Source: a virus. Taken from it: DNA of 64,000 nt. Numbering within the stretch: the first letter of the stretch is position 1; each line of letters starts with the position of its first letter. The DNA lies in the IMG/VR virus record IMGVR_UViG_3300037485_001872, positions 1 through 64,000 of that record. The stretch is one strand, 5' to 3'. Positions 3,226 through 49,106 of this stretch are shown in pieces. A model generated the notes under the pieces. It was given only the letters and a program-made list of their open reading frames with translations, did not search any database and was not told where the DNA came from. The translations under genes and the position numbers were made by a program.

Positions 3226-3552
3226 TTAAATTTTTGTAATTTTATTATTTATCCAATAAAGGGCATTGTTATCAAGTAGAAATTTATTTTGCTCGTTTAG
3301 TTCAAAATTTATTTCCTGAAGCACATCTTCACTATCATAATAGCCACTTACTATTTTAGTTTCGGTATCGTAATTAAACTTTACAATACTTACCTTATCA
3401 AGCGAAACGGCTGGTATAAGACTAAATACAGGGTACAAGTCAGAAGGCTTAGGTATTTCCTCTACTTCAATTCCATGTTCGGTTATTGTAGCATTTTTAG
3501 CTATTTTAATAATTAAGCCTTGCTCGTTATGTATAATTGCTTTTAGTTCCAT
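3226..3552 (-). CDS. Hypothetical protein, possible fibre chaperone
   Basis: 108-aa ORF tightly packed between two fibre genes. Confidence 0.45.
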   Translation of the reverse strand: MELKAIIHNEQGLIIKIAKNATITEHGIEVEEIPKPSDLYPVFSLIPAVSLDKVSIVKFNYDTETKIVSGYYDSEDVLQEINFELNEQNKFLLDNNALYWINNKITKI

Positions 3553-25229: not shown

Positions 25230-25304
25230 TTGCGGTTACAGGCTACGACCCTGCTGTTTCTGGGATATGAACCCAGTGTGTAATCCATTTTTCACTCAAC
25301 CGCC
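25230..25304 (-). tRNA. tRNA-Met(CAT), initiator-like, degenerate
   Basis: GGCGGTT/AACCGCA acceptor with 1:72 mismatch; CTGGG-TTCATAT-CCCAG anticodon arm; GCAGG-GTCGTAG-CCTGT T arm; promoter TACCTTTG at 25308-25315 directly upstream. Confidence 0.7.
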
Positions 25305-32612: not shown

Positions 32613-32703
32613 AGAGATTTTTATGCGGCAATTATTAATAACATTCATATGACATTCGCATGACAATTGCCTATTGCGGTTATGGTATTTAGTATTACCT
32701 TTG
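32613..32703 (+). promoter_or_regulatory. First early promoter: AGAGATTTT..GCGG motif, three TGACA-like half-sites, -7 TACCTTTG
   Basis: AGAGATTTTTATGCGGC 32613; TAACA 32639, TGACA 32650, TGACA 32661; TACCTTTG 32696. Confidence 0.75.
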
Positions 32704-32725
32704 TATTGCCTTATTAATTAAACTA

Positions 32726-32770
32726 CTTAGCACGGATTTACTCCGATGACTGAGGAACGCTCTTTGACAT
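32726..32770 (+). promoter_or_regulatory. Hairpin followed by a boxA-like antitermination signal
   Basis: CGGA-TTTAC-TCCG hairpin, then CGCTCTTTGACAT 32758-32770 (boxA consensus GCTCTTTAACA). Confidence 0.5.
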
Positions 32771-32862
32771 CTTGGCAATTATATAGGGGGTTAACTAAGG
32801 TTAACAACACAAAACCCCTATTCTATGCAAACTAATTTCAATTTTAAAGCAAATTAAAACAC

Positions 32863-33768
32863 ATGGAAACAAACACAATTTTAGACGGTATTTTAGCAGG
32901 TAATGCGCACGTTGAATCGTTAAGGACTCAAGTAATTCAAGCCAAAAAAATGCAATTGCATTCAGGTGTTGAGGGGTTCGAAAGTCCCGAATCTTACGGG
33001 GTTTATAGACATACGGGGGGTGCACCTTTGGGGGTTGTTGGTTCAGTTTTTCAACCAATGGATTTAAACGTATTTATTGACTCGATTGAACAAAGTGTTG
33101 CTAATTGTGGCAATGGTTTGGATATATCTAAGTTACAATATGATGAGTTCAAAGGGGGTTCAAAAGTGGCCTTTTCTTTGCCCGTTAAATCTTACAAACT
33201 TAAAACCCCTCAAGTGGGGGACATAGTTGAAACGAAATTAATGTTTTCAACGGGGTTTGATGGACTAACTAAATGTAGCCTATCTTATATGACTAAGCGG
33301 TTATGGTGTACTAATGGAGCGGCTGCATGGGACAAAAAAACTAGCTTTGAACTTTCCTTTAAAAATACCATTGGGAACCAATTTAAGGTTATGATGTTTT
33401 GTGATGAGGTTATGAATTCAATTAACAATATAGAGGCTTATATTAAGCAACTAAATGAGTTGAATGAATTTAAAGTGACCAAGGAGCAACAAGACAGATT
33501 TGTGACCAAGCTAACAGGCTTTAACATGGGGGAGTATAAAGACCTTAACACTAACAAGCGAAATATTTTAGATAGAATAAATCGTGATATTCTTATTGAA
33601 AGCAATAACACGGGAATGACAGCCTTTAGCTTGTTGCAAGGTATTACAAGATACACCACTCATGAATTGGGCAAAGGGGATGTTAATGCTGTACTTTTTG
33701 ACAATGCAGCTAAACTAAACCAAAAAGCCCATGAACTTGTACTAGTGGAATCATCTAGTTGGAACTAA
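32863..33768 (+). CDS. DUF932-family protein
   Basis: LGVVG..F.P, GG.KV, GFDG, RLWCTNG, T...L..G.T.Y..H pattern; typical early phage gene. Confidence 0.75.
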   Translation: METNTILDGILAGNAHVESLRTQVIQAKKMQLHSGVEGFESPESYGVYRHTGGAPLGVVGSVFQPMDLNVFIDSIEQSVANCGNGLDISKLQYDEFKGGSKVAFSLPVKSYKLKTPQVGDIVETKLMFSTGFDGLTKCSLSYMTKRLWCTNGAAAWDKKTSFELSFKNTIGNQFKVMMFCDEVMNSINNIEAYIKQLNELNEFKVTKEQQDRFVTKLTGFNMGEYKDLNTNKRNILDRINRDILIESNNTGMTAFSLLQGITRYTTHELGKGDVNAVLFDNAAKLNQKAHELVLVESSSWN

Positions 33769-33774
33769 CAAAGG

Positions 33775-33798
33775 AAAGCCCCGAAAGGGGCTTTTTTT
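33775..33798 (+). terminator. Intrinsic terminator
   Basis: AAAGCCCC-GAAA-GGGGCTTT followed by TTTT. Confidence 0.85.
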
Positions 33799-33954
33799 AT
33801 GTCTAAATTTTAGCCCCTTTATTCTAGTTAATATAAATTAGTTAACACACATGTATAACACACACAGATTTAAACTAGTTAACACAAATATAAACACAAA
33901 TATGACATTGTTATGACACAAAAAAGTTGTAACTTTGAAGTCAAATATTAAATT

Positions 33955-34368
33955 ATGGAACCTATACTAATTACTACAGACATTGCCAAAGCTATTGGCA
34001 AGGCTATTGCCGAACAAAGCAAATCTATTCTAACTAACAGAGAAAAAGAATTCAAAGTTAGCTTTAACATTCGAGGGGATGTAAACGTAAAAAAAGGAAA
34101 CGATTTTCAACAAATAGTTAACTTTTCAATTGATTGGCAAAAAGCATTTTTATTCGCACTAAATAAGCTAAATAAAGACACGGCAAATACAGTGTTAAAG
34201 GAATTTTTACAAGCTCCTGAAATTGAAATTACAAAGGAATTCAAAACACGTTGTGATACTATCATTAAAGAAATTAAACAAGCTAGTTTAAAAACCGTAT
34301 CAGGTAAGGTTACAATTAATAATCCTTTTCTATCTACTAATGAAATAGAGGTTTGCGAAAATTGCTAA
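33955..34368 (+). CDS. Hypothetical early protein
   Basis: 137 aa with its own TGACA-box promoter (33903-33937). Confidence 0.55.
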   Translation: MEPILITTDIAKAIGKAIAEQSKSILTNREKEFKVSFNIRGDVNVKKGNDFQQIVNFSIDWQKAFLFALNKLNKDTANTVLKEFLQAPEIEITKEFKTRCDTIIKEIKQASLKTVSGKVTINNPFLSTNEIEVCENC

Positions 34369-34388
34369 ATCGAAATAAGTTAAAACAA

Positions 34389-34416
34389 AAAGCTCACAGA
34401 AATGTGGGCTTTTTTT
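34389..34416 (+). terminator. Intrinsic terminator
   Basis: AGCTCACA-GAAA-TGTGGGCT followed by a T-tract. Confidence 0.75.
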
Positions 34417-34491
34417 ATGACACAAAGATGACATTAAAAAGCTTGTATAATTAAAAAATAGTTGTACCTTTGAGTAACAAATTAAAACATC

Positions 34492-34749
34492 ATGCATAAA
34501 AACTTAGTAGTAACTCGCACAGGCCAAACGGCCACAGGTAAATTAGGCAATTTAATCGGCCACAGTATGGACAGTTCAAACACTGTAAGACCTTTGTCAG
34601 CAAGTGACAAACATTTGCAGCAAATGAATTTAGCTCGTATACGTTTGGCCAAATCATTTGTAGAACCTGAATTGTCAAATGAATTAGCAAAATTCGAAGC
34701 TAGTTTAATTGAATCTAAGGAAGACTTTTATGACATTCAAACTAACTAA
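34492..34749 (+). CDS. Hypothetical early protein
   Basis: 85 aa behind TGACA-box promoter 34418-34472. Confidence 0.5.
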   Translation: MHKNLVVTRTGQTATGKLGNLIGHSMDSSNTVRPLSASDKHLQQMNLARIRLAKSFVEPELSNELAKFEASLIESKEDFYDIQTN

Positions 34750-35003
34750 AATGAAACGCTTAAAATTAGCTCGCTGTAAAAAGCGGGCTTTTTTATTGGT
34801 TGAAAGTATTAATATAGATAAGTTTGTTTATATCTATATTAGTTTGTGTACAATTATTGGTGGGCTTTCCTTACTTTATTTGATGACAAAAAGATGACAA
34901 AACTATTTTGCAGTGTTATAATTAAGTTGTAAATTTGTATCCTAATGATAGAGGTAATAATCCAAACGATAGTTATTTATTCAATCCTAATTTATAACCT
35001 CCT

Positions 35004-35645
35004 ATGTTTATAAAGTTTCAAACTAAGGTGGTAAAACGTAAACAAGTGGTTAAACGTTTGCTATTCTATTACGAGCAAGCCACAGCCACTGAATTAACGT
35101 ACAATTGGTATGTAGAAGCAAACCAATTTTGCCGTGAATTATCCACAGCTTTTAAAACACCATTGTTTCAAGTTGCTGGCATAGTTTCTGCAATGAGTCC
35201 CCAAAAAAATTGGCAAGAAAATAAAAAGCTTGCCTATCAATTCATGAAAGGTAAACGAGGTGGACAAACTAAGCAGCAAATTTTAAAAGCTGAAAGGTGC
35301 TTGATATGTGACAGTGAAACTGAAATATTTTCGTTGCTAACTAAGAAGGGATTAAAAACAAGTTACTTTTATACTAACTTATTACACCCTGATTTTGACA
35401 GTGGGGTGACAATTGATAGACATGCAATCGGTGCTAGTTTAAATGAATTAAAAGACATTAACACAAACATGAAAGCTGCCGTGTTAACAAAGCCACAGTA
35501 CGATTTTTTTGCCTCATGCTTCAATGATGTAGCAAAGGTCAAAAAAGTATTACCATTACAAGTACAAGCCACAGTTTGGCAAAGCTACAGACGGTTGAAA
35601 GGACTTGTTGAAAGTTATAACACAAACGAAGATATTCCATTTTAG
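35004..35645 (+). CDS. Phage helix-hairpin-helix glycosylase-like protein
   Basis: WY..A...VAGIVSAMSPQ.NW..N...K...F..N...VTIDRHA...Y...QA.VW. Confidence 0.5.
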   Translation: MFIKFQTKVVKRKQVVKRLLFYYEQATATELTYNWYVEANQFCRELSTAFKTPLFQVAGIVSAMSPQKNWQENKKLAYQFMKGKRGGQTKQQILKAERCLICDSETEIFSLLTKKGLKTSYFYTNLLHPDFDSGVTIDRHAIGASLNELKDINTNMKAAVLTKPQYDFFASCFNDVAKVKKVLPLQVQATVWQSYRRLKGLVESYNTNEDIPF

Positions 35646-35647
35646 TT

Positions 35648-35884
35648 ATGATAGATTGTAGTACTTATTACGTTTATGCTAATGGTGAAAGGATTGGTAA
35701 AACCATTACGGTTAATGATGGTGTAGATGTTATGGAAAGCATCATGCAAAAAATCAATTCAATTAAGCATTCAAATTATTACACCACAGAATTCAAATCC
35801 AAACTAACTAATATAACCTTCAAAAGGATATATGGTGGACACAGAAATGAAGGAGTTAATTACCACAATGACTTTATATTTTAA
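35648..35884 (+). CDS. Hypothetical protein
   Basis: 78-aa ORF. Confidence 0.45.
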   Translation: MIDCSTYYVYANGERIGKTITVNDGVDVMESIMQKINSIKHSNYYTTEFKSKLTNITFKRIYGGHRNEGVNYHNDFIF

Positions 35885-35942
35885 TGACAAAAAAATGACA
35901 CAGAAACTTTTTTAATTCAAAAATGTTTCGTACCTTTGAATC

Positions 35943-36449
35943 ATGGAAGTAATATATAAAGAAGATGGCCGAGGTACTATCATCACTCCTTTTTTTCATG
36001 AGGTTTATAATAAAAAGGAAAGGATTGAAGTGAATTTTAGCTCATTAGCTAAAGAAATCTTTTCGTTTGCTAAATATGGTGTTATTCAATTTATCATTGA
36101 AACAGACTCTTTAGAAAAAGCAGTTGAATTAGCCAAGGATAGAATAAATCTATTATTTCCTATGTATCCTAAACAAAATGAAATTATAAAGGTTACGGGC
36201 TTTAAATATAATAATGAAAATGTAAAAGTTCCATTTGAGTTATCATTCATGGAAAATACACATCACCAAAATCAATTCACTGCTAATTCCTATAAAACTA
36301 AAATAGGTGACTTATTAAGATATGATTGTAACGGAGATGGTTGGGGATTTTGGTATATTGTAGATGACAATGGAAAAAGAATTTCTGAAAGGTTAAAAGG
36401 AACAACATTTTTAGGTGCAATATCTGATGGTATAATTACAAAGAAATAA
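35943..36449 (+). CDS. Hypothetical protein, leaderless
   Basis: TGACA 35885/35896; TACCTTTG-AATC-ATG start. Confidence 0.55.
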   Translation: MEVIYKEDGRGTIITPFFHEVYNKKERIEVNFSSLAKEIFSFAKYGVIQFIIETDSLEKAVELAKDRINLLFPMYPKQNEIIKVTGFKYNNENVKVPFELSFMENTHHQNQFTANSYKTKIGDLLRYDCNGDGWGFWYIVDDNGKRISERLKGTTFLGAISDGIITKK

Positions 36450-36689
36450 GTGACAAAAAAATGACAAAAAGATTTTGTAGTGTAACGAAAAAATCGTACC
36501 TTTAAATCATCCAAAACTTGGCTTAGTATCCAAAATACAGAGTAGGGGAGCCATGGTTGAAACAAATTGGGTAAAGGAAACAGTTAATCAATATAAACAA
36601 AAATAGTTGTCCATGATGTTGAGAAATGTAGGGGGAATAATGTAGATTTCCCCAAAGTTTCTTTCTTAGGACTAAAAAATAATTAAAAT

Positions 36690-36826
36690 GGGGGATTAGT
36701 AGTAGCGGTTAGAATAGCTAACGTGTAAAGGATAACAAAAGTGGAGTAATTACCCACCATGTTAAACTTCGGATAAACCGAAAAAATACACTTTAGAAGA
36801 CACGGGTTCAAATCCCGTATCCCTCT
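36690..36826 (+). ncRNA. tRNA-like RNA with a structured insert in place of the anticodon loop
   Basis: GGGGGAT/ATCCCTC acceptor; GGTTAGAATA D-loop-like segment; ACGGG-TTCAAAT-CCCGT perfect T arm; CTAA.GTGTA/TACAC.TTAG stem enclosing ~60 nt. Confidence 0.7.
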
Positions 36827-36838
36827 GCCCAAATTTAT

Positions 36839-37010
36839 ATTCCGAAAGGAACGAACAACGAGGCGTCAGCACACGCCTACAATCTAACCTAGTTAGAAGA
36901 GAATTTGGGGTAAAAACACTGCACCGCCCAATATATGTGGCCATCGCAAAGTTGAATTTAGTTCAACAACAAGCCTCGCCTCGTTGAAATTCACAGCGGG
37001 GTTGAGGTAG
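36839..37010 (+). ncRNA. Hairpin-rich non-coding segment downstream of the tRNA-like RNA
   Basis: TTCC-GAAA-GGAA, AGGCGT/ACGCCT, TCTAAC/GTTAGA, GTTGAA/TTCAAC; long-range pair CAACGAGGCG/CGCCTCGTTG. Confidence 0.45.
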
Positions 37011-37212
37011 TGAAATGAAATCAGGAATGTACGTTAAACTAGGGGAACTAAAATACATGTTCCTAGGATTTACAGACTATAAACAAAAATATTGTTTCTT
37101 AGCTGATATACATGGTAACACACATACACAACTTCGTAAAAATTTAACCATATGCATATAATCACCATCCTTGTTATCTTATTTCTTTTATCTGTAATTA
37201 CAGCAAACCGAA

Positions 37213-39900
37213 ATGGAAGCAGAAATAATTAAGAAGCTTGAACGTGGTATTTTTAGAATAACACAAGGTACTGGCACAGCAGTTTCTGAGCGTTGTGGGT
37301 TCTATTTTAAGCTATTAAAGCCACTGAATGAGTTTATGTATGAGGATTTATTTGAAAAATATAAAAAAGCATTACAATTCCGTGACAATAAATTGAAAAA
37401 ATAGTTGTAGCTTTGAAGCATAATATTTAACACATGAACATACAAGAAAACATCATCAGAGAAAAAATCACCTTTAGAGGTGGAGGAGTTGAAATCAGTC
37501 TTAACTCAGTTGGATTTGAAGGAGAAAAAATGACTGCCTACCAAAATTATTTAGGAGGAGGTATGCTAGGTAGAATAGCAAATGACTGCACCATTAAAAA
37601 TTGGAGAGATAATTCTGAGCTAGTTAAAATAGCAGACGAGCTTAGTAGATATATGTTTGAGGTTACAAATCCTGAGGGAGATTGGGAGAGTACTACCTAT
37701 GAACAGAACCAAAACCTACCTATATCAGCTTATTAATCATGAACAAAGAATTGGTAATGTAGTAACTTTTTATCGTTAAAATAAATAATAAAATGAGAAC
37801 ATTTAAAGAATTAAAACAGTCGATTGACAATAACGAAGAATTGGTGTGGAATGACCCAGACCCGATAAAAAACAATGATTATACTATCACATACATTGAA
37901 CCGATTAATGAGGACTTTGATGAATATACACCTATATTAATACAATATGGTGGTGGTAGTGAGGCTGAAGTATTTTTACATGAAATTTTAAAAAAGTAAT
38001 ACAATGAATAAGCAAGAAACAATAAAAACAATCAGAGAAATCATCAGTAATTGGGGAAGTCCGATTACTGACGCAGATATGGAACTAATCAGTTCACCCA
38101 TCATCAACCAGGTGAGCAAAGACCATTTTAGTTTGGCAGAAAGTTTCCATCTCGACTATGTGGGTGTAACAACTTATGTACACGAAATTGTAACCGATGA
38201 AACCGATATGTCATACGAAGACCTTTCGGAAGATATACTAAAAAAAGTAATCATTGCGTTTGTTATTGAAAACTTCAATGAGTTTCAATTGGTTAATACC
38301 ACTAAAGAAAAATTTCGTCCTTACATATATGACAGTGAGGGAGAATATTTAATTGGTGGTGAAGAAGTGGCCGTGTTTATTGAAAGTTTCATAAAACTTT
38401 ATAGTAACTAAGATGAAAACAGAAGATATTTTTTTCGAAAATTATACACCCGAATATAATCAGGTGTTATTAAAAGAACTACAAGCCAAAGAAGATACGG
38501 GTTCAACGCTACCCGAAGATATGTGTTCGTGGAATGGTTGTATGTATGAAACATATGGAGAAGAATTAGATTATGTTATAAAACAACCGAGTAACCGTAT
38601 ATGGACAATCATAGAAGAGGATGGAGTAATGTATATTTCAGCAGGTTATCATATAGTTAACAGATTGGGCTATTTTATTACTAATGAGGAAATCACTGAC
38701 TTTTCAGAAGACTATTTAATAGAGGAATAATGCAAATAGTATTCAATAAAGAAACCGCTGTAGTTGGTAGCATGGATGGTATACATGTATTCAATACCAT
38801 TAACATTGAAAAGCCTGAATACAACTGCCCCGAAGAAGTTGTGGATAAGGTGGTGGAAATGTTTAATGAGGGATATGACTTATCTTGTATAGATGAATGT
38901 TTATTATATGCTAATTGCACAACAGAAGCAAGAGAGGTAATGGTGGAGGGGTTATATAAAATAATGTACCAACCAAAGCTTAATATTGGTAATGATACTT
39001 TTGACACTTATACAGGAGAACTATGCAAATAATATTCGGAAACATAACCTTTAACCACCTGAGCCAAGGAGAGCTTAGTTTGTTTAAAACCAAAAAAGAT
39101 TTGAAGGCTCTTATACACCGTGTAGACCTTACATTGGATGTGAAGGAGGAGAAGCTTGTGGATGTAATTGATTTGAATGAAGGAAACTATTCAGCATGGA
39201 TTGTTCCCGCAAAATTTGAAGGAGAAATTATTTATGAACAAAAATAAATTAACACAACAGGAACGTGATGAAATTAGCAAGGCTAAGAGTACACACAAAG
39301 GACGACTGAAAAATCAAGCAGCAGAAATGCAAGCAGCAAGCCATGACTTAATTCGTCAGGTGCTTCTAAATGATACTCCTAATTGGGGTGGAATGAAACT
39401 AAATGGGATAGATATTGACACGCCATCTCGTAGTGTTTACAAAACATTCAAAAGATAATGGGAGGCTTTGTATTTATTATGGCTGTAGGAATATTTTTTT
39501 ATTGGCTTGGAACGTATGCCGAAAAATAAAATTTATTTCAGTGAAGCTCAACAAGGCTATTGTGAGGGAACTCTCTCAGGTAACAGAAGTGGGAACCAAA
39601 AGGAAATCATTTTGCCCAATGGTAAAAGCATACTACTTTATGAGTATCAATATAGCACGACAATGGTTACGTATCCTGACAGAAAATTGACAAAGTGTTT
39701 GTGCGGAAATTCAACTAAATAACGTATCTTTGTAACATGAAACACTATCAATATTTTTTCAAAACAGAAAGTGGAGAAACTAAGTTGGCTTGGGGTGTAG
39801 CAAAAAGTGAGACGGCATTAAGAAGTAGCCTAGCTAATTTAGATATTCACGGCATCTCTAGGGGACGAGCTAAAACACACAAAAAATGTATTTCCATCTA
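37213..39900 (+). other. Cluster of about 10 small hypothetical early ORFs (37213, 37434, 37793, 38004, 38413, 38730, 39023, 39234, 39737 and others)
   Basis: Tightly packed 54-135 aa ORFs, many acidic, with A-rich leaders and internal TGACA-box promoters at 37372-37415 and 39677-39732. Confidence 0.6.
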
Positions 39901-39984
39901 ATCTTATATTGCATTTCTCTTCTCTTTAAAAAGAGGACAAATAATATATAATTTTATTGATTTGGATATTCCAATTAATTGTTG

Positions 39985-40315
39985 TACATTTGTACTTCGT
40001 TATTGGTTCGATTAATACTATAACTTAGGCCGTTCGCAAAACTTGATAAATCCTAAGAAACCCTGTTGGAAATCGAACTTCTAGCAGGGTTTTTTATTGC
40101 CCGTTGTTGTATTGGATTAAACAAGTTAAAATAAATCCTCGGTGGCGAAAACGGAAATACATACTAATAAATAAAGGTGGTTGAAGTCCATATGTGTCTT
40201 GTAAACGGTTTGACATTTATGGCGGGTGATAGAAATTAATAAGGCCGCATTTATTAAAAGACAATAAAAGAAAGTAAGTCTGGATGATTTGCTTCTCCTG
40301 AAAGGGAACTCAAGT
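39985..40315 (+). ncRNA. Promoter, attenuator and structured RNA (locus B)
   Basis: TACATTTG 39985; GTTCGATT 40006 complements the loop of terminator 40059-40095; stems TGTATT/AATACA, TAATAAAT/ATTTATTA, CCATA/TATGG, AAGTAAGTC/GATTTGCTT, TCCT-GAAA-GGGA. Confidence 0.45.
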
Positions 40316-40485
40316 ATTGTTATTTAGCTTAATGATTCTAATAGAATGACAATCGGGGAAGGTATCACCCAAGATAAAAACCGTTTTATGCAAACTAGGG
40401 TAGAATTCAAATGACAAACAAATGACAATTTCCCTATTGTAATTCCCAAATATAGTTGTAGCTTTGTGTTGTAATATTATAGCAT

Positions 40486-40842
40486 ATGACATTCACAGAC
40501 AAACTAATCAAAGACATTCGTAATGGTAAGGGGTTCTCTAAAACCCTAAGAGGTAAATCACCCAAGTCAGGGTACATGGTTGCTCTCTCAGACTATCGTG
40601 AGCGTACAATTCCCCGTACAAAAAATATAGAACGTATTGGATACGAGCTTCAAGAATTTATCAAGGCTAACTTATTTCCATTATTAAATGGAGCATACCT
40701 AGGTGTATGGGTTACAGATAAAAACATTGTATTTGATGTCTCCGAGAATCTTGCCTCCGAGGTTCTTACAAAAGAACTAGGAAGGGTTCGTAAGCAACAA
40801 GCAATTTGGGATGTGGTTAATGGATGCGAAATATTTATATAA
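40486..40842 (+). CDS. Conserved phage protein of unknown function
   Basis: GFS...P.SGYMV...LGVW...DVS...G....Q.AIWD motif set; TGACA-box promoter 40412-40466. Confidence 0.5.
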   Translation: MTFTDKLIKDIRNGKGFSKTLRGKSPKSGYMVALSDYRERTIPRTKNIERIGYELQEFIKANLFPLLNGAYLGVWVTDKNIVFDVSENLASEVLTKELGRVRKQQAIWDVVNGCEIFI

Positions 40843-40848
40843 GGTAGT

Positions 40849-41313
40849 ATGTATATATTAACTAAAATCGCACGGGAGGCATCATTAGATGTTCCATTCA
40901 TAAACGCAGGGGGTTGTGCTATATTTGCATTAAACATGGCAAAAGAGTTAGCTCCTCTTCGTCCTGAGATTTATAATATTAGTTCACTGATACCAAAATT
41001 TGCAAAACAATACAGTAAGCAAAAAACCCTCTTAGCCACTTCTTGTGACCATGTTGTAATTAAAGTTGCAGGAGTTTATTTAGATAGTAATGGTGTAGCA
41101 CATAATAAAGATGCCGTTAGAAAACCATGGTATGGTAGAACATTCACCAAGGTGAGTTTAAAGGAGACACAGGAAGCTGTACAACATAAATCAAATTGGA
41201 ATCCTAAATTTGACCGTGATGAATATAAGAGTGTATTAGAGGAGCAGATTAAATTGGCCGTATCAAAAAACCTATGCCCCTTACTTAAAGACAAATTTAT
41301 AACAAAGAAATGA
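40849..41313 (+). CDS. Papain-like thiol peptidase-fold protein
   Basis: GGCAIFA...DHVVIK...YLDSNG gives a Cys-His-Asp order. Confidence 0.45.
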   Translation: MYILTKIAREASLDVPFINAGGCAIFALNMAKELAPLRPEIYNISSLIPKFAKQYSKQKTLLATSCDHVVIKVAGVYLDSNGVAHNKDAVRKPWYGRTFTKVSLKETQEAVQHKSNWNPKFDRDEYKSVLEEQIKLAVSKNLCPLLKDKFITKK

Positions 41314-44300
41314 AAGCAACTAGAATACAAAGAGACTTCTGTTATGCCTATGATTTTCTATTCACTACAGAAGCAGAACAACTAGCAAGGAAAGCTATTA
41401 TACGTTCCTTCTCTTTAAGTGTAGAAATTCCACGAAGAAACTTCTTTGAATATAATAATGTTTATGACAAATTAATGACAAAAAAACTTGTTTGCATCAA
41501 AAAAATAATATAACTTTGTACCATGTTAAAAGAGTTCGGAATTAAATCAGAAAGTTTTGCTTTATTGGAAGCATTCAAAAAAGAAAGTGAAAAGTTAGGT
41601 GCTGAATATCATACAGTGTTCAATGCTTTCACAGAAGAGAAATTTAAAGATAAGGAGGGGATGTTTTTTGCACAGGCCATTGATGGTACTTGGAGTTTAA
41701 GGTCAGAAGAACAAGAAGGTAAAATACTTTTTGCTTTAACAGGAAGTATTTGTTTAGCTCCTAATTTAGTATTCACTCTTCCTGAGCAGTGGAATGAAGG
41801 AATTGCCGCTATAAAAAATCTTGTAACAGATAGTAAAAAAGTATTTAACCCAAAGAAAATTTATGGGTATGATGCTAAGACTAAGCTTAAAGGAAAATGT
41901 AAACTACATAGCATAGATGAACTTGATAACGTATGGGCATTTGTATCTTGTGAGAACTCAGACTGTTGGGCAGAATCTTTTACAACGGCTCAAGCAGCAT
42001 TGGATTATGTAGGAGAGCGTTTGATGGTGTTCGATGATGTGAAGGAGTTTGGTAAGTGGTTGGCGGCATAAAAATCTCTTTTCATAACTCATTGATAATC
42101 ACACCCCAAGTCAGGTTTCTCCACCGTACGGAGACAAGTTTTTGGTGGGGAAAATGGCCGCATTGAAAAATCTTAACTACTTGATAATCAATGAAAGAAC
42201 TAATTGCATATTACACAGAAATAGGTAGACATGATGTCGTTGCCAATTTAAAGGAAGTACAAATTGACCAAACCATAATAGATAACGAGAATTATTCACG
42301 CCTATCGGATGAATTAGAGAACAGTTTCTATTGGAAATATACCGAAATGGGTTACGATTATTGGAATAATTTGTTTTCTGAATTACTTACGTTAAATTTG
42401 TAAAGCCTTGGTATCAGGGGGTTGGAGGAGGATGGAGAACCCCCTAATATTGTATTCTTGGTACTGTGCAATACCTAGTACCGTGTTTGGCATATTTCCA
42501 AATTGCATATACCATTTTCTCCCACGTCTTTTTCATGTTATTTTATTTGGATACCTCTCTTACTATGTAGGAGGGTTGCTTTCAATTTATGGGGAAAGAG
42601 ATTTTGTTGCGGCAATTTTCTTACAATAACATGACACAATATGTTTGGTGGTTTAAATATCTAGTTGTATCTTTGTTCTGTTAATAATCAACATATGAAT
42701 CCAAAATTAAGAATCCAAAACATTGACGGAGTTACCAAGGAATTTGATAAGAAAGAAGATGCCATTGAGTTTATTCAAAATCTCTTTATAGAAAATGAGG
42801 ATTGGTCAGAAATGAAAAACCCCAATACATATGCAGAATGTGTAAATTACCTAGTAAAGTTTTGTGATAATTGGATATTGATATGAACATACACGAATTA
42901 AAAAAAGAGCATTCTAAGCTAACTAGTATAAATGACCATACAGGGGCAGCTCAGTTAATAATAAATCAATTTGGAACTTTTGATGATAAGTTTAATATGG
43001 GAGTGCTTGCTAGTAAACATGAGAAGCAAGGGTATATGACTCCATGGGATTTAGAGATTAGAGACCAATTGGTTAAGAAGTGGTGGCCTTTCTTTAAGAT
43101 GTTATGTAATGAGGTGGTATAAAAGAGAATGTTAAAAGAGATTTTTAAGCGGCCAAATCCTGATGATAATATGACAATACTTATTTGGTGATGTCAATTA
43201 GTAGTTGTAACTTTGAGCTATGAAAGAATCTAAAAAAGAATTTATTAAACGTAACATTAAATCTTATGGTAGAGAGGATTTTATCTCTTTGCTTAATGAA
43301 AATATTCAAAATCTAGCTGAGGATGGAATGGCTAATGAGAATAAGTTTCAGATTAAATGGTTTTGTGATATGTTAATTCAAATAGAAAAAGATGAACTTT
43401 AAAAAACAATACCGAGACTTTGAAATGCGTATTCTACGAGAACTAGAAACTCGTGTTCTTAGAAGTACCTATAAGTCAAAGCATGTTGATACCCATGCTA
43501 TACGAGTTAATATATTTGGGTACACTGAGCTAGTTCATCTAAATGGTAAGTTAGTTTTCCTAGATGATTCAGGCTATGCTTATTCTATATTTTCTGATTG
43601 TACCTTGGAGGATTTGATTGATGTTCTTAATTCTTGTATAGACTAGATGGATAAGAGATTTTTTAGCGGAATTTTCCTGACAATAAAATGACAAAATAAG
43701 CTTGGTGGTGTGAAACCCTTGTCGTACCTTTGAAAGACAATAAAAACAACATGAAAAAAGTATTATATCTTAATTATGGCAGACCATTCCCAACTGCTGA
43801 ACCTGATGGGGAAAGTGTAAAATTTCTTGATATTAAGTCATTTAGAATTGTTTGGGGAAATATTGAGGTGACGGATTTGAAGGGGGAGATACATTACCTA
43901 CCCATGGTGTGTAATTTGTTTTATTACAATGGTGTATACTACTCAGATATTTGGGTGGAAATGATTCATGATAATGTCGCCTCAGAACAATTCGACATTA
44001 ATAAAACTAAGCTAACTAATCCACTTCCTATTCAACACCCAAGTTTAGGCGAGGTGCTTCAAATACTAACAGATGAAATTGAGGTGGATGGGGAAACTAT
44101 GCAATACATTTTGGAGGAGTGTAATATGGACGAGCAAATGTTCAAGCAACTTCTAAATACCAAGGACTATGTTTCAAATTACCTAGCAGAGTATTTAGCT
44201 GAAAGAAAGGAAGGGAAAGGAAAGAATAAGGAGCTGAAACACCGCCTAAAAATGATTGAGGAAGATATGGCCGCCATTGTATCCTTTATAAAAGAGGGGG

Positions 44301-44702
44301 GTTTATCTGAAACATTTAAAAACCCAACACCTTTCACTGATGAAGCTTGGACTCATATAAGCAACATTGAAATAGCTTGTAACCTACAGGCAGATGAATC
44401 TTTGAATTGGAAGCCTTTTAGAAAGAACTAGTATGAATCCAGAAGAAGAATCATTAAAGACTTTTTGGAGAGATGTGAGGAATCAGGAGATGACAATTAG
44501 ATATGCAGCAGAACTAGTATGGAACTATCTTTACTCCCACCCGAAAGAATTCTTAACTCGGAAGCAGTTCATAGAGGATAACCACCTCAATAGTCAATTG
44601 GAATTTATAGTAGTTAATCAGGTTTGGAATGATATTGAGAATAATGACACCCTTATATATTGGGACTTTAAATCTTATTATGAAAACCTTACACTAATAT
44701 GA
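41310..44702 (+). other. Cluster of small hypothetical early ORFs (41310, 41523, 42191, 42695, 42883, 43220, 43392, 43751, 44433)
   Basis: ORF track, with starts corrected to lie downstream of TGACA-box promoters at 41465, 42621, 43172 and 43678. Confidence 0.6.
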
Positions 44703-44762
44703 CATTAAAAGTTTGTAGTGTAATAAATTAGTTGTAGCTTTGTATCAACAAATAGAAACAAC

Positions 44763-45296
44763 ATGAACCTACCGACAACTTGGCTAGAAGCCCTAGAAAA
44801 AAAGAAACAAGAAGCAGAAAGTAACCCAACAGCCTTTAAATTTAATGATGGTGGAAGAGCCTCAGCAGGATTTAAGGGAACCACGGGAGATTGCGTTGTA
44901 AGAGCCATTGCCATTGCTACTAAGCAAGAGTATAAATTGGTGTATGACGAACTGACAGAACGTATTAAATCTTTCGCCACCTCCTCTCGGAGTAGAGCCG
45001 CCAAGAGTATTAAAACGCATTCACCATCTAAAGGAGTTCACAGGGAGGTTTATGAAAAATATCTATCTGAACTAGGATGGAAGTTTGTTCCCACCATGGG
45101 AATTGGAACAGGATGCACATTACATATCGGGGATGTAGTGAAGAAGGAGGGGGAAATTCTTTGCTCCTCTAATCGGATTATTGCTAGAGTGAGCAAGCAT
45201 TTAGTGGCCATTGTAGAAGGGGTTGTTGAAGACACCTATGATTGTACAAGAGGAGGTAACAGATGTATCTATGGATATTACACTCAGCTGACATAA
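44763..45296 (+). CDS. Papain-like thiol peptidase-fold protein (DCVVRA family)
   Basis: GDCVVRAIAIAT...KHLVAIVEGVVEDTYDC; Cys-His-Asp order. Confidence 0.55.
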   Translation: MNLPTTWLEALEKKKQEAESNPTAFKFNDGGRASAGFKGTTGDCVVRAIAIATKQEYKLVYDELTERIKSFATSSRSRAAKSIKTHSPSKGVHREVYEKYLSELGWKFVPTMGIGTGCTLHIGDVVKKEGEILCSSNRIIARVSKHLVAIVEGVVEDTYDCTRGGNRCIYGYYTQLT

Positions 45297-45335
45297 ATAT
45301 TTTGGTATTTAAAAATTAAGTTGTAACTTTGAATC

Positions 45336-48300
45336 ATGGAAGAAATAGTAAAAGCATTAGAAATTGAAATGTTAAGACTTGTTCGAAAGTTACAAGATAA
45401 ATCAGCAACTAAGCAAGATGCTATAAATTTGGCAGTGCTTACTGAGTGTTTAGAAAAAATAAATAAATTCATTAAATAAATCATGTTTATAGTTAATTAC
45501 AAAAGAAAAGACAATGGTGAGTCATTGGGTTATCACTTGGATACATTTGGTAGTTTAGGTAAGAAAGAACACGCTAAATGTTATGGTGATGATACTGACA
45601 CTCAGGAAGATATTGATAGTCAATTAGCGGTGATTAGAAAAAACTTAAACCATCGCCTAAGTGAAGGTGGTGGAGGTGGAATGTTTGCTGAGATATTTAT
45701 TAAGCAAAAGGAGCAATCATATCAAGGATTAAATGCCGACCAAATTGATATTGTTGCAGAAGCAGTTGTTTATAAAGAACAAGAGTTAGTTGCTCATACA
45801 ATAGTTGATGAAAATGGTGTACATAAAATTCGTAAACCATTGGTTGATGTTGTTGTGGACATGGTTAAAAAAGTTGCAGGTTATGGCAAAGATTAATTTA
45901 GATAGACACGTTTGGGAGGATGTTAAAGATTATGAATCTTTATATCAAATTAACCAAGAAGGTGTGGTGATTCAAAGTACAGGAGTCTCAATAATGGAGT
46001 CTAAACTTTATTCCCCTCTACCTGAGAATGAGAGACAAGGTAAATTAGGTTGTATAAATACTCAACTTCTTGACAAATAAATGACAATACTTTCTTGTTT
46101 ATATCAAACATCGGTTGTAGCTTTGTTCTATGCAAATGAAACACTTTAATATCATTGCCGAGGATGGAAAGGTTGTAGGAACAATTGTAAATTGCTCCTC
46201 AGACCCACACGGAAGACTCTCGTTAACTAAAAGGATGAAGGTGGCACTAGAGGAACACTTTGATGTAGATGTTGTCTTAAATGAGCTCCCTGACGTTTTT
46301 ACAAACTCTCCTAAATACACTATGAAAATTTTTAGAGGTGGGTATAGGGAGGAAATATCAATAATGGAAACTTGGATATATTAAACAAATTAAAATGAAA
46401 ACAGAGATAACAAAAGGAAAATGGCAAGTAAGGGATGAAGGAAGTAATGGTATTTACATTAAATCTGAGGAACACACTAGTGCCATAGGTAAATTTTTTA
46501 CTAATAACGAAGTGATAAAGAATAGAGAAGAAGCCTTGGCGAATGCTAACTATATAGTGAATGCTGTAAATTCTCATGAAGAATTAAAGGCAGCATTGGT
46601 TGAAGCTAAAAGATGTTTATTAAATAGTACATATGATGAACTTTGCACACCTATCAAAATAATAGACCGAGCTCTTAAAAACTGTGTACCTGAATGCCCT
46701 TATAAAGAAGGGGAGTTAATATGGGCGAAAACTGCTCTTGGATTAGAGGTATTACCATGTACAGGAAAAATAGTTGATGGAGATATTGAAATTTGGCTTT
46801 GGATGGATAAGAGGAGTGATAGAAAAACTACGACTAAATTCCATGCTTCAACAAATGGATTAACTTTCCCTGAGTAATTATGACAAATTTTAAAGTAGGC
46901 TACCATAAAAGATTCTCAAAGGACGGAACGGTTTATACCCAATCTGTACGAATTAATATGAATACATTAATATCTTTGAGAGAAGTTAGACAGAGTGAAA
47001 TTGATTTAGGTTTTCCTAGGCGAAAAGAATATGACCCAACAGGCTACCATGATATTCCTCATTTTAGTTGTAGGTATGAAGGAGTCGGTAAGAAAGCTAC
47101 ATGCTATTCTTATATGACCCTAACTCAGACACGTTTTTCTAATTTATTTTTGAAGCTAAATTTAAAAGACAGGAACACTTATTTAATAATTGAAAAATAA
47201 TGGAAGGCTTTTCAGGAGATTTAGAAAAATATAAAAAATGTCGAGACTTTTTAAAAGCATGTGGTTATGACGTAAACTCAGCTATACATGTTGGTGGTAA
47301 CAGGTTTGAATTTGAAGAGGCATCATTTAATAGTGAAAAGAAAGGATGTCGTAATATTCATAAGATTTTAGCCTGGGTGGGGGATAATGGTGTTGGGTAT
47401 AAAGTAAAGAAAATAGGTTGGATTTGTATTGATTAAAATATGAGAAGAGTACTTTTTAAAAAATGGAAAGATTTTCCTGACAATAAGGTTAGATGTGGTA
47501 TGGTAGGAATGTTTGAAGAAGATTTTACACATGAGGGTGATTTTCATCAGTGGGCTCCCGCATATGAAGAGTTTGAATCTGGGGCTGGAAATTACATAGT
47601 AGCTTTAATCGAAACAACTGATGGAACTATAGAGGAAGTGCTTCCTAAAAATATGAAAATAAAATTCGGAGTGTTTTGTAATCAAATGGTGGGAAGAATG
47701 GTGAGGGCTAATTCCTTAGTTGAGGCCATAAATAACCTACCCATTAAGCTTAAAAAGCATTGGAGTGTTATTATGTACCGAGATGAAGATGGTCTCTCTA
47801 TTAGCGTTAGAAAAGAGTTTTTAGAGGATATGTCTCTTGCAGAAGTTGTAGAAGACCATGTGCTTTTTGGTGATACAGATGCCGATATTATTGTTTTAAA
47901 TCCTAGTGGAGTAGGAGTAATTTATTTATAAACTATGATAAATCTTGATAATTTTGACGGCCATTTAGTATTGTATTGCAAAAATAATTACTATGTACCC
48001 AATATAGACTTTTTAACAGGGTTAAGAAGGATTTGGGCTATTCGCTGTGGATATGACTATAAGGATGGTAACACCTCTGTAGATAGATATATAGCAGACC
48101 ATTTGTATGATGTTTTGAAATTAACAGATTTTCATCCTAGCTTACAAGAACTTTTACATAATTACATCGTAAACAATTATTATGATGATGGTAAAACTGC
48201 CATTGAAAATATAATTATGTTTTATAGGAGTAGAATAAGTATGCTTATAATAAGGGAAAAGGTAAACACCTATTGGAAACCTCTAATACATCTACCTAAA

Positions 48301-48671: not shown

Positions 48672-49106
48672 TATTCAGCATAATCGTATTAATAATTTTT
48701 ATCTTAACCACCCCACATTTAATAAATTGGATGTGGAGAAATATTCTTGATGATTTAATCGTGCTAGGAATATTTATTTCAATCATATACACTGTAACAA
48801 CAGCGTATGCACTAAAGTACTTAATCATATGGGCTTACCCATTACTAGTAGCATAATAAAGAGACATAAAAATGACAAAAAAATCTTGTAGCGTAACAAA
48901 AAAGTTGTACATTTGTATCATCAAATAACATGAAACTATCTACAGAAATAATTGAAGGAATCACATACACCAAAGTGGAAGGAGTGGGACAAACGTTTTC
49001 AGTGAAAGGAGTTAAGTCTATCAAAGAAGTACTTTCTATATTAGATAAGATAGAAAAGGACTCAGAACGGTTTTTTACTAAAGTGGCTAGTATTTCTATT
49101 TTGGAG

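What the first reader, a model, noticed from the sequence alone, without database searches (positions are those of the whole stretch)
36690..36826. tRNA-shaped RNA whose anticodon loop is replaced by a ~60-nt branched domain
Seen: 7-bp acceptor GGGGGAT/ATCCCTC, D-like GGTTAGAATA, canonical T arm ACGGG-TTCAAAT-CCCGT and an extended stem CTAA-C-GTGTA/TACAC-T-TTAG. That stem encloses two sub-hairpins (TAACA..GTGG..CCAC..TGTTA and TTCGG-ATAAA-CCGAA). There is no anticodon loop and no encoded CCA. The GAC before the T arm and the long central stem recall the tmRNA tRNA-like domain, but at 137 nt it is far shorter than a tmRNA and its G-U pair is at 2:71 rather than 3:70. Inference: a mini-tmRNA/SmpB decoy, a tRNA mimic that titrates anticodon nucleases or other defence sensors, or an intron-containing tRNA. 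It lies downstream of TGACA-box promoter 36451-36504.
Basis: partly seen in the sequence, partly recalled or inferred. Interest (0 to 1): 0.75.

Follow-up and report, generated by a model that had tools for sequence, protein, structure and literature searches.

The report
Anticodon-less tRNA-shaped phage RNA gene
A large freshwater phage of the crAss-related kind carries a gene for an RNA with the ends and elbow of a tRNA but a folded 71-base domain where the codon-reading loop should be; it resembles the long-unexplained tRNA-like stable RNAs of phages T4 and T5, and no relative of it could be found to test it further.

Summary
Window 36690-36826 (+) has a 7-bp acceptor stem, a canonical T arm, a D loop with GG, tRNA-correct spacing and U73. 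A 71-nt three-way junction sits where the 7-nt anticodon loop belongs, and no CCA is encoded.

- **Detection:** ARAGORN calls nothing. Rfam tRNA reaches 29.6 bits (cut-off 29) only in a 156-nt scan. tmRNA matches the T arm alone (16.5 of 47 bits).
- **Against chance:** no GC-rich shell of this kind occurs in 0 of 200 genome shuffles. The insert (z -3.6) and the 188-nt tail behind it (z -4.6) fold far better than shuffles.
- **Setting:** it lies behind one of ten copies of a phage promoter, in a 565-nt non-coding island.
- **Relatives:** none found. My covariance model matched 0 of 80 related IMG/VR records, so covariation is untestable.

Best reading (0.5): a non-decoding tRNA-shaped RNA cut out by host tRNA-end enzymes, analogous to T4 RNA C/D and T5 RNA1/RNA2, whose functions are unknown.

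Rivals: a decayed tRNA (0.2), a cis-acting domain of a larger RNA (0.12), an intron-bearing tRNA (0.08), a mini-tmRNA (0.03).

This scan has noted similar shell RNAs on other DNA, but never this sequence.

The parts
36451..36504 (+). Promoter of the phage's TGACA-N6-TGACA ... TAnnTTT[AG] class, here ending TACCTTTA
   Evidence: One of 10 + strand matches to the motif between 32650 and 46071, with 0 on the - strand. BLAST finds similarity of 36450-36515 to 48863-48925 (82.5%) and 35885-35944. Reading TAnnTTTG as the Bacteroidota -7 element is recalled knowledge, not a tool result.
36507..36689 (+). Leader of about 180 nt, ending in a terminator-like hairpin (36631-36653) 36 nt before the element
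   Evidence: The hairpin GGGGGAATAATGTAGATTTCCCC followed by a T-rich tail was found by the consensus scan. The leader as a whole is not unusually structured (z -0.93). A contig of run X5 joins 36454 to 36597, skipping 142 nt, so promoter and most of the leader are absent in one strain.
36690..36826 (+). The tRNA-shaped RNA, 137 nt, with no anticodon loop and no encoded CCA
   Evidence: Sequence read. RF00005 gives 29.6 bits over exactly 36690-36826 in a 156-nt scan. It is present once in the 134-kb record. The base before +1 is T and +1 is G.
36690..36696 (+). Acceptor stem 5' strand GGGGGAT, pairing with 36819-36825 ATCCCTC. G.U is at 2:71 and the discriminator T is at 36826.
   Evidence: Pair probabilities 0.79-1.00. 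0 of 200 shuffles give such a GC-rich shell.
36697..36716 (+). D region TAGTAGTAGCGGTTAGAATA: 20 nt, with T8 and GG in the D loop, but a degenerate D stem
   Evidence: In the canonical register only G10.T26 and T11-A25 can pair, as in the ARAGORN drawing. Alternative local hairpins TAGC/GCTA (0.19-0.26) and GTTAG/CTAAC (0.65) compete.
36717..36721 (+). Equivalent of the anticodon stem: 5' strand GCTAA pairing with 36793-36797 TTAGA (4 pairs plus G.A)
   Evidence: The spacing fits tRNA positions 27-31 and 39-43. Pair probability is only 0.05 in the thermodynamic ensemble; the constrained fold is -34.7 against an MFE of -36.3.
36722..36792 (+). 71-nt three-way junction in place of the 7-nt anticodon loop. 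It has a closing helix GTGTA/TACAC, hairpin 1 (36733-36764) and hairpin 2 (36768-36782, TTCGG-ATAAA-CCGAA).
   Evidence: Folded alone: -16.3 kcal/mol, z -3.57, with 1 of 200 shuffles folding as well. No Rfam family matches it. No other copy exists in the genome.
36798..36818 (+). Variable region AGAC (36798-36801) and T arm ACGGG-TTCAAAT-CCCGT (36802-36818)
   Evidence: Rfam tmRNA and tRNA models both align this arm. The 23 nt from CGGG to the end of the acceptor strand are identical in three bacterial tRNA-Gly(CCC) genes, which also have discriminator T.
36827..37014 (+). 188-nt strongly structured tail that starts one base after the discriminator. It has a 9-bp stem enclosing three hairpins (36828-36909), then a second multi-hairpin domain reaching the ATG at 37015.
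   Evidence: MFE -59.1 kcal/mol, z -4.61, with 0 of 200 shuffles folding as well. No Rfam match.

Best explanation
It is a gene for a non-decoding, tRNA-shaped RNA.

How it would be made:
- The island is transcribed from the phage promoter at 36451-36504 (inferred from the motif family).
- The acceptor/T-arm minihelix and the D-loop/T-loop elbow make the transcript a substrate for the host's tRNA-end enzymes. RNase P would cut between T36689 and G36690. A 3' endonuclease or exonucleases would trim after T36826. The CCA-adding enzyme would complete the end. All three steps are inferred from established tRNA biology.
- The result would be a stable RNA of about 140 nt that cannot read codons, because a 71-nt three-way junction stands on the anticodon stem where the loop should be (shown by the sequence).

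What it would do: the tRNA shell serves as a processing and stabilising carrier. The RNA would act by occupying a protein that recognises the tRNA body or 3' end, with the insert either as the specific part or simply as the block to decoding. This last step is the weakest and is pure inference. Its excision would also create the 5' end of the structured RNA that begins one base downstream.
For: - **Shell:** it is intact where tRNA-end enzymes read it. The acceptor stem pairs 7 of 7 and the T stem 5 of 5. The T loop is TTCAAAT, T8 and the D-loop GG are present, and T(-1)/G(+1) flank the 5' end.
- **Spacing:** it is that of a class I tRNA except for the loop. When any normal-sized loop is restored in silico, ARAGORN calls a tRNA at default thresholds (14 of 1950 deletion variants).
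- **Against chance:** such a GC-rich shell appears in 0 of 200 shuffles of this 32% G+C genome.
- **Insert and tail:** the insert is more stable than shuffles (z -3.57). The abutting tail is even more so (z -4.61, 0 of 200).
- **Transcription setting:** the island sits behind one of 10 same-strand copies of a promoter motif, in a densely coding block of small genes.
- **Precedent:** T4 rnaC (139 nt) and rnaD, and T5 RNA1 (144 nt) and RNA2 (125 nt), are annotated as small or tRNA-like stable RNAs next to further stable RNAs. T4 RNAC and RNAD are made late in infection and have unknown function (PMC9697503 and PMC3014915, passages read).
- **Persistence:** both ends of the element are present in contigs of a 95-99% identical strain from another study (run X5).
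Against: - No relative was found, so no covariation test is possible. The 26-nt 3' end has no exact match in IMG/VR, and blastn against 50,697 phage records finds nothing.
- Model R1 (self score 179.8 bits) matched 0 of 80 related IMG/VR records at E <= 1. These 80 were kept from 468 portal relatives, at 38-44% portal identity, and 26 of them are at least 90% complete.
- R1 also matched 0 of 3 records that carry the neighbouring gene, found nothing in csAssE-Sib, and matched only ordinary tRNAs in Cellulophaga phage phi17:2.
- The neighbouring gene's relatives have no such island behind them.
- The D stem is degenerate (2 of 4 pairs).
- There is no RNA evidence of any kind.
- No partner protein is known. 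The phage record shows no SmpB, RtcB or RNA ligase among the families tried. A weak PolyA_pol hit (12 bits) was not confirmed.
- One strain lacks the promoter and most of the leader.
Confidence: 0.5

Rival explanations
1. It is a decaying tRNA gene. An ancestral phage tRNA, glycine- or arginine-like in its acceptor and T arms, was hit by an insertion in the anticodon loop and is now a relic without function.
For: - It is an orphan: 0 of 80 related records have it.
- Relatives carry ordinary tRNAs instead. There were 57 RF00005 matches in 18 of the 80 related records, all 60-85 nt long. Cellulophaga phage phi17:2 has 26 and csAssE-Sib has 7.
- The D stem has decayed, and a TAG-TAG-TAG run looks like slippage.
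- This phage keeps only one other tRNA, itself low-scoring: CAU at 25230-25304, 31.3 bits.
Against: - Decay should not spare exactly the 12 pairs and the T loop that processing enzymes read. The GC-rich shell appears in 0 of 200 shuffles.
- The insert is not random sequence: z -3.57, with its closing helix stacking on the anticodon stem.
- It has no other copy in the genome, so it is not a repeat element.
- It sits in a 565-nt non-coding island with its own promoter copy and a very structured tail, in a genome that otherwise packs genes tightly.
Confidence: 0.2
2. It is not released as a separate RNA. It is one domain of a structured leader or non-coding RNA of about 500 nt (36507-37014) that acts in cis on the operon of small genes starting at 37015. 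It could act as a processing or punctuation site, or as a stabiliser.
For: - The tail begins one base after the discriminator and runs to the ATG at 37015.
- The motif scan finds no further copy of this promoter class between 36451 and 39677.
- T5 and T4 show tRNA-like RNAs abutting other stable RNAs.
Against: A tRNA-like shell this complete is expected to be cut by RNase P and 3' trimming enzymes, which releases it. That expectation comes from established knowledge, not from a test here. There are no data on RNA ends.
Confidence: 0.12
3. It is a tRNA gene with a short intron that is not of group I type. After removal of about 62 nt at position 37/38, a 75-nt tRNA with anticodon GUA would remain. 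This would resemble the 'enigmatic introns' reported in tRNAs of Lak megaphages of Prevotella.
For: - In-silico excision of 40-101 gives a loop GUGUAAC with U33, GUA and A37, and ARAGORN calls it at default thresholds.
- Phage tRNA introns of unknown mechanism are in print for phages of Bacteroidota hosts (PMC6784885, abstract and passages read).
Against: - The cut point is not unique. The 14 default ARAGORN calls among 1950 variants give six different anticodons, and ARAGORN's own intron mode at -ps90 proposes ACA instead.
- G32 and C38 could pair and close the loop.
- The body is class I with U73, whereas bacterial tRNA-Tyr is class II with A73 (recalled knowledge).
- At 62-64 nt it is far too short for a group I intron, and Rfam reports no intron family.
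- The would-be 3' splice site lies inside a helix, not in a bulge.
- The phage record has no RtcB or RNA ligase.
Confidence: 0.08
4. It is a miniature tmRNA, or a decoy for SmpB: a tRNA-like domain with a long helix in place of the anticodon arm.
For: - The D region may be stemless.
- GAC precedes the T arm.
- The Rfam tmRNA model aligns GAC plus the T arm (16.5 bits, E 0.00015 in a 701-nt scan).
Against: - Position 3:70 is G-C, the G.U pair is at 2:71, and the discriminator is U.
- The tmRNA score is far below the gathering score of 47 and covers 24 nt only.
- ARAGORN in tmRNA mode finds nothing, even at -ps80.
- The mt-tmRNA model hits elsewhere, not here.
- The three frames of the insert give no alanine-rich tag.
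- No SmpB gene is in the record.
Confidence: 0.03

Closest known systems
Phage T5 RNA1 (144 nt) and RNA2 (125 nt), annotated 'tRNA-like stable RNA with unknown functions' (NC_005859 30501-30644 and 32959-33083)
   Same: - They are phage-encoded and 125-144 nt long.
- A paired 5'/3' end abuts a canonical T arm, and a large folded middle takes the place of a decoding anticodon arm.
- RNA1 directly abuts further stable RNAs (RNAI, RNAIII). Here a structured 188-nt tail abuts the element in the same way.
   Different: - There is no sequence relationship. Over the T5 locus, model R1 gives only 10.9 bits, and that match is to a tRNA-Ser.
- The T5 RNAs lie inside a tRNA gene cluster. This element stands alone behind its own promoter.
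- T5 RNA1 has a leucine/serine-type D arm. This shell is class I, with U73.
- The T5 RNAs were seen as RNA; this one has not been.
Phage T4 species 1 and 2 RNAs (rnaC 139 nt, rnaD 119 nt; NC_000866 70908-71171)
   Same: They are small stable phage RNAs made from the tRNA region. rnaC ends in a canonical T arm. Their function has been unknown for decades (PMC3014915 and PMC9697503, passages read).
   Different: - R1 finds no sequence relationship in the T4 locus.
- The rnaC acceptor pairing is much weaker than here.
- The host and the phage lineage are different.
tmRNA tRNA-like domain (Rfam RF00023) and the reduced mitochondrial tmRNA (RF02544)
   Same: It has an acceptor stem plus T arm, a possibly stemless D region, and a long helix where the anticodon arm would be.
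   Different: It has no G3.U70 and no A73. Scores are 16.5 of the 47 bits needed for RF00023, and there is no RF02544 match at the element. There is no tag frame.
Bacterial tRNA-Gly(CCC) genes of three metagenome-assembled Myxococcota/Bdellovibrio-type genomes, and tRNA-Arg(UCU) of Cellulophaga phage phi17:2
   Same: - The 23 nt CGGGTTCAAATCCCGTATCCCTC and the discriminator T are identical to the tRNA-Gly(CCC) genes. This is the best non-self R1 score, 29.8 bits.
- The 5' GGGGGATTAGT and a U discriminator are shared with the phi17:2 tRNA-Arg (24.7 bits).
   Different: Those are ordinary 74-75-nt tRNAs with 7-nt anticodon loops and proper D stems.
Engineered 'tRNA scaffold' for expressing recombinant RNA in E. 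coli (the method of PMC3753655; only the search listing and start of the abstract were seen, the design itself is recalled)
   Same: The design is the same: a folded RNA is grafted onto the anticodon stem of a tRNA body, so that cellular tRNA enzymes process and stabilise it.
   Different: That is a laboratory construct. Whether the natural element is processed or stable has not been tested.

Membership tests
tmRNA (RF00023) | G3.U70 pair and A73 (alanine identity), 3' CCA | tested here: not met
   Position 3:70 is G-C, G.U is at 2:71, the discriminator is T, and it is followed by GCC.
tmRNA (RF00023) | Match to the family covariance model at or above the gathering score; call by ARAGORN in tmRNA mode | tested here: not met
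   16.5 bits against 47, covering 36796-36819 only. ARAGORN -m finds nothing, also at -ps80. RF02544 does not hit the element.
tmRNA (RF00023) | Internal tag reading frame ending in a stop | tested here: not met
   The three frames of 36717-36801 read ANV*RITKVE*..., LTCKG*QKW... and *RVKDNKSGVITHHVKLRINRKNTL*. None is alanine-rich or tag-like.
Decoding tRNA (RF00005) | 7-bp acceptor stem, 5-bp T stem with T loop, abutting each other | tested here: met
Decoding tRNA (RF00005) | 5-bp anticodon stem closed by a 7-nt loop with U33 and an anticodon | tested here: not met
   71 nt lie between the two strands of the stem equivalent. ARAGORN, with and without intron mode, finds nothing at default thresholds.
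Decoding tRNA (RF00005) | Score at or above the Rfam gathering score (29 bits) | tested here: inconclusive
   29.6 bits in a 156-nt scan, with insertions of 58 and 22 nt. 21.6 bits for a partial alignment in the genome-wide search. Not reported in the whole-window gathering scan.
Decoding tRNA (RF00005) | 4-bp D stem | tested here: not met
   Only 2 of 4 pairs form in the canonical register. The alternative hairpins are non-canonical.
tRNA with group I intron | Intron of about 200 nt or more with a group I core, in the anticodon loop | tested here: not met
   The insert is 62-71 nt. No intron family appears in the Rfam E-value scans.
tRNA with archaeal/eukaryal-type intron | A unique excision at 37/38 giving a canonical loop, with splice sites in bulges (bulge-helix-bulge) | tested here: inconclusive
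   Excision at 37/38 gives GUGUAAC (GUA). However, six different anticodons arise from nearby cuts, and the 3' site lies inside a helix. tRNAscan-SE was not available.
T4 rnaC/rnaD and T5 RNA1/RNA2 type of tRNA-like stable phage RNA | Phage-encoded, 120-145 nt, tRNA-like paired ends with a T arm, no decoding arm | tested here: met
T4 rnaC/rnaD and T5 RNA1/RNA2 type of tRNA-like stable phage RNA | Accumulates as a discrete stable RNA in infected cells | not testable with these tools
   No RNA run was listed as holding the stretch.
T4 rnaC/rnaD and T5 RNA1/RNA2 type of tRNA-like stable phage RNA | Sequence or model homology to those RNAs | tested here: not met
   R1 finds no match to RNA1, RNA2, rnaC or rnaD in L051 and L052 at E <= 10.
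YrlA-type bacterial Y RNA | RNA ends lie in a Ro-binding stem, with the tRNA-like module distal and its acceptor closed by a loop | tested here: not met
   Here the free ends are those of the acceptor stem. There is no Rfam match. The topology of YrlA is recalled from PMC4201824, of which only the search listing and start of the abstract were seen.

The most novel reading that the evidence does not exclude
The element is a natural 'tRNA scaffold'. In this reading the phage uses the top half of a glycine/arginine-type tRNA purely as a handle for host RNase P, 3' trimming and CCA addition. This produces a stable RNA whose three-way-junction cargo, or whose uncharged or charged CCA end, captures a host protein that inspects tRNAs, for example a defence toxin acting on tRNA 3' ends or bodies. 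It would then be one case of a broad, still unexplained class of anticodon-less tRNA-shaped phage RNAs that includes T4 RNA C/D and T5 RNA1/2.
Probability: 0.25. Interest if true: 0.7.

Novelty: new variant of a known kind. Interest (0 to 1): 0.4.

Why it matters
tRNA-like stable RNAs of T4 and T5 have been known for about fifty years without a function. If elements like this one are working RNAs, phages of quite different lineages and hosts have repeatedly turned tRNA bodies into carriers for other RNA domains. That would point to a general, untested interaction with host tRNA-handling or tRNA-targeting proteins.

This particular case adds three things: a class I (Gly/Arg-like, U73) shell, a clean three-way-junction insert, and a dedicated promoter in a crAss-related freshwater phage.

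Its weight is limited. It is an orphan, the phage is uncultured, its host is unknown, and neither expression nor conservation could be tested.

Tried and rejected
**Searches for relatives that found nothing**
- An exact 26-nt 3'-end pattern in IMG/VR.
- blastn (distant mode) of 36400-37100 against 50,697 phage records.
- tblastn of the upstream 168-aa protein against the same records.
- Single-protein locus searches with three neighbouring or conserved proteins.

**Synteny route**
- The 168-aa protein has 19 relatives.
- Profile and P0012 searches fetched four distinct loci. None has a T-arm motif or a non-coding island behind the gene, and no other neighbouring gene is shared.

**Portal route**
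- There are 225 relatives at E <= 1e-50. IMG/VR holds 468 relatives, of which 80 were kept. Model R1 matched 0 of the 80.
- The closest portal relatives (50-61% identity) are on Logan, ENA or JGI contigs that I could not fetch.

**D-loop/T-loop spacing pattern**
- It returned 27 IMG/VR loci. One of them (L050) is a comparable shell with a different insert, in an unrelated phage with no portal match. The others are adjacent tRNAs, coding sequence, or a 101-nt tRNA-Trp-plus-T-arm family.
- The genome search with R1 missed the L050 shell, but cmsearch found it at 24.9 bits. The genome-search front end can therefore miss shell-level matches.

**Sequencing runs**
- No RNA holder was listed.
- The one read-laying run covered only parts of the stretch. 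In X5, 36667-36799 had no laid contig. The 4 differences in the contig over 36800-36941 were not itemised. No variant information on the element itself was obtained.

**Candidates rejected**
- ARAGORN's tRNA-Ser(gga) at 44078-44162 (-ps95) lies inside an ORF and has no Rfam support.
- The ARAGORN 'tRNA-Arg(tcg)' readings of this element and of L050 need poor anticodon stems.
- The weak PolyA_pol hit at 128145-128477 was not confirmed.
- Minus-strand ORFs 36683-36832 (49 aa) and 36762-36944 (60 aa) overlap the element. I treat them as chance frames, because the whole block is transcribed on the + strand.

**Papers not fully seen**
Supplements were closed. Supplementary Table 6 of PMC6784885 (Lak intron sequences) and Supplementary Table 1 of PMC10690425 (10,006 candidate viral RNAs) may bear on whether this element or its kind is already listed.

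That this element is not in print rests only on searches and on the passages read.
Full report
**What is there.** Window 36690-36826 (+) reads as a tRNA body with a foreign middle. In order along the sequence:
- GGGGGAT (1-7) pairs with ATCCCTC (130-136), 7 of 7 pairs, with G.U at 2:71.
- T8 and A9 follow.
- A 17-18-nt D region contains GG.
- One purine follows.
- GCTAA faces TTAGA (4 pairs plus G.A) where the anticodon stem belongs.
- A 4-nt variable region AGAC follows.
- The T arm is ACGGG-TTCAAAT-CCCGT.
- The discriminator is T. GCC follows, so CCA is not encoded.

Between the two strands of the anticodon-stem equivalent lie 71 nt instead of 7. They form a closing helix GTGTA/TACAC and two hairpins. 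Pair probabilities support the acceptor stem, the T arm, both hairpins and the closing helix (0.66-1.00). The outer CTAA/TTAG pairs compete with a local D-region hairpin, and enforcing them costs 1.6 kcal/mol.

**Is it more than chance?**
- A loose shell criterion is met 1.89 times per shuffled genome, so pairing alone proves nothing in this AT-rich DNA.
- Requiring the G-C content actually seen, the real genome has one such shell and 200 shuffles have none. This criterion was chosen post hoc.
- Infernal's tRNA model gives 29.6 bits over exactly 36690-36826 when a 156-nt stretch is searched. It gives 21.6 bits for a partial alignment genome-wide.
- The element is absent from the whole-window gathering scan, and ARAGORN finds nothing.
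- The insert alone has z -3.57.

**Context.**
- The window is the first 64 kb of a 134,122-nt IMG/VR virus record estimated 88% complete.
- Its portal is 40% identical to that of phage csAssE-Sib and 36% to those of Cellulophaga phages phi17:2 and phi4:1. It is therefore a large crAss-related phage, probably of a Bacteroidota host.
- Holders of the stretch are sediment and lake-water metagenomes.
- The element lies in a 565-nt stretch without a plausible ORF (36450-37014), between a 168-aa gene and a run of small genes of no known family.
- The island begins with one of ten same-strand copies of the motif TGACA-N6-TGACA...TAnnTTT[AG].
- A terminator-like hairpin stands 36 nt before the element.
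- One base after the discriminator begins a 188-nt tail that is very strongly structured (z -4.61, 0 of 200 shuffles).
- The phage has one true tRNA elsewhere: anticodon CAU, 25230-25304 on the minus strand, 31.3 bits.

**Relatives.** I could find none.
- Exact and similarity searches were empty.
- Loci that carry the neighbouring gene have neither the element nor the island.
- A covariance model of the element (self score 179.8 bits) matched 0 of 80 related IMG/VR records. These were the best 80 of 468 portal relatives, at 38-44% identity, and 26 are at least 90% complete.
- The model matched only ordinary tRNAs in phi17:2.
- Eighteen of the 80 records were also scanned with the tRNA model. 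All 57 matches span 60-85 nt, so none has a comparable insert.

**Origin of the shell.**
- The 23 nt from the T stem to the end of the acceptor strand, plus the discriminator T, are identical to three bacterial tRNA-Gly(CCC) genes (29.8 bits with R1).
- The 5' 11 nt and a U discriminator are shared with tRNA-Arg(UCU) of phi17:2.
- The shell is thus a class I tRNA body. It is not the leucine-type shell that earlier notes of this scan describe on other DNA.

**What it is not.**
- *tmRNA.* Every defining feature tested fails: G3.U70, A73, the family model, a tag frame and ARAGORN.
- *tRNA with a group I intron.* The insert is too short and no model matches.
- *tRNA with a short intron.* This cannot be excluded, because cutting out 62 nt at 37/38 leaves GUGUAAC with U33, GUA and A37. 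But 14 ARAGORN calls among 1950 in-silico deletions give six different anticodons. G32 and C38 could pair. The body does not fit bacterial tyrosine identity (recalled knowledge). No ligase or RtcB is encoded. Short 'enigmatic' tRNA introns are reported for Lak phages of Prevotella (PMC6784885, passages read), so I keep this reading at 0.08.

**What it most likely is.** The closest things known are the tRNA-like stable RNAs of T5 (RNA1, RNA2) and T4 (rnaC, rnaD). They have the same size range and the same paired ends with a T arm, lack a decoding arm, and abut further stable RNAs. Their function is still unknown (PMC3014915 and PMC9697503, passages read). They are not homologous to this element, so the resemblance is one of design.

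I therefore read the element as a non-decoding tRNA-shaped RNA that host RNase P, 3' trimming and CCA addition would release from the island transcript. The shell would act as carrier, and the junction insert would act as cargo or as a block to decoding. What it binds is unknown. A role against host proteins that inspect tRNAs is an inference from its place among small early-type genes, not a result.

A comparable shell with an unrelated insert, next to another odd tRNA-like RNA, turned up in an unrelated large phage (L050). This fits the picture of a recurrent design.

**Verdict.** It is a new variant of a known but unexplained kind. Confidence in a working, processed, non-decoding RNA is 0.5, against 0.2 for a decayed tRNA. 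Interest is moderate (0.4). The design is striking and the class is unexplained, but this case is an orphan in an uncultured phage with no expression or conservation data.

Noticed in passing
window 25230-25304 (-): A real but low-scoring tRNA with anticodon CAU. RF00005 gives 31.3 bits in a 601-nt scan. The whole-window gathering scan and ARAGORN at default thresholds both miss it; ARAGORN calls it only at -ps90. It has a G.A mismatch at 1:72 and an unusual T loop, GTCGTAG. It sits just behind a TACCTTTG promoter element and before a terminator and a structured region.
   Followed up: partly
window 32650-46071 (+): Ten same-strand copies of TGACA-N6-TGACA, then 20-40 nt, then TAnnTTT[AG], each just upstream of a + strand gene or non-coding island. 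None is on the minus strand. It looks like a regulated promoter class with a two-box operator.
   Followed up: partly
window 36455-36596: A lake-water contig (run X5, pieces 95-99% alike) joins 36454 directly to 36597. One strain therefore lacks the island's promoter and most of its leader. It keeps the hairpin and, in the contig's loose end, the first bases of the element.
   Followed up: no
window 36827-37014 (+): A 188-nt tail with z -4.61. A 9-bp stem encloses three hairpins, one with a GAAA loop, giving a cloverleaf-like four-way junction. A second multi-hairpin domain then ends at the ATG of a 48-aa ORF. No Rfam match.
   Followed up: partly
L050 2962-3082 (-) and about 110 nt downstream on the same strand: An unrelated large IMG/VR phage (153.7-kb record). 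Inside a tRNA cluster that also holds a tmRNA gene, it carries a tRNA-shaped element with a proper D arm and an insert of about 50 nt. Next to it is an RNA of about 113 nt whose ends pair as GGGGCAT/ATGCTCC, with G.U at 3:70, followed by ACC.
   Followed up: partly
L026, L028, L029, L032-L034, L037-L039, L042, L046, L049: Twelve IMG/VR contigs share a nearly identical arrangement. A tRNA-Trp(CCA)-like gene is followed at once by about 50 nt that end in a second T arm (TGTGG-TTCAAAT-CCACA) without a full tRNA body.
   Followed up: no
L019 (G002 3331-3391) and L020 (G003 43859-43919): RF00005 matches of 45.9 bits that span only 61 nt. ARAGORN does not call them. They may be tRNAs lacking an arm, in phages that share the 168-aa neighbour gene.
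   Followed up: no
window 35943-36449 (+): The 168-aa protein upstream has 19 relatives (44-97% identity) and no Pfam or PHROG family. It occurs in otherwise non-syntenic phage neighbourhoods, so it behaves like a mobile accessory gene.
   Followed up: partly
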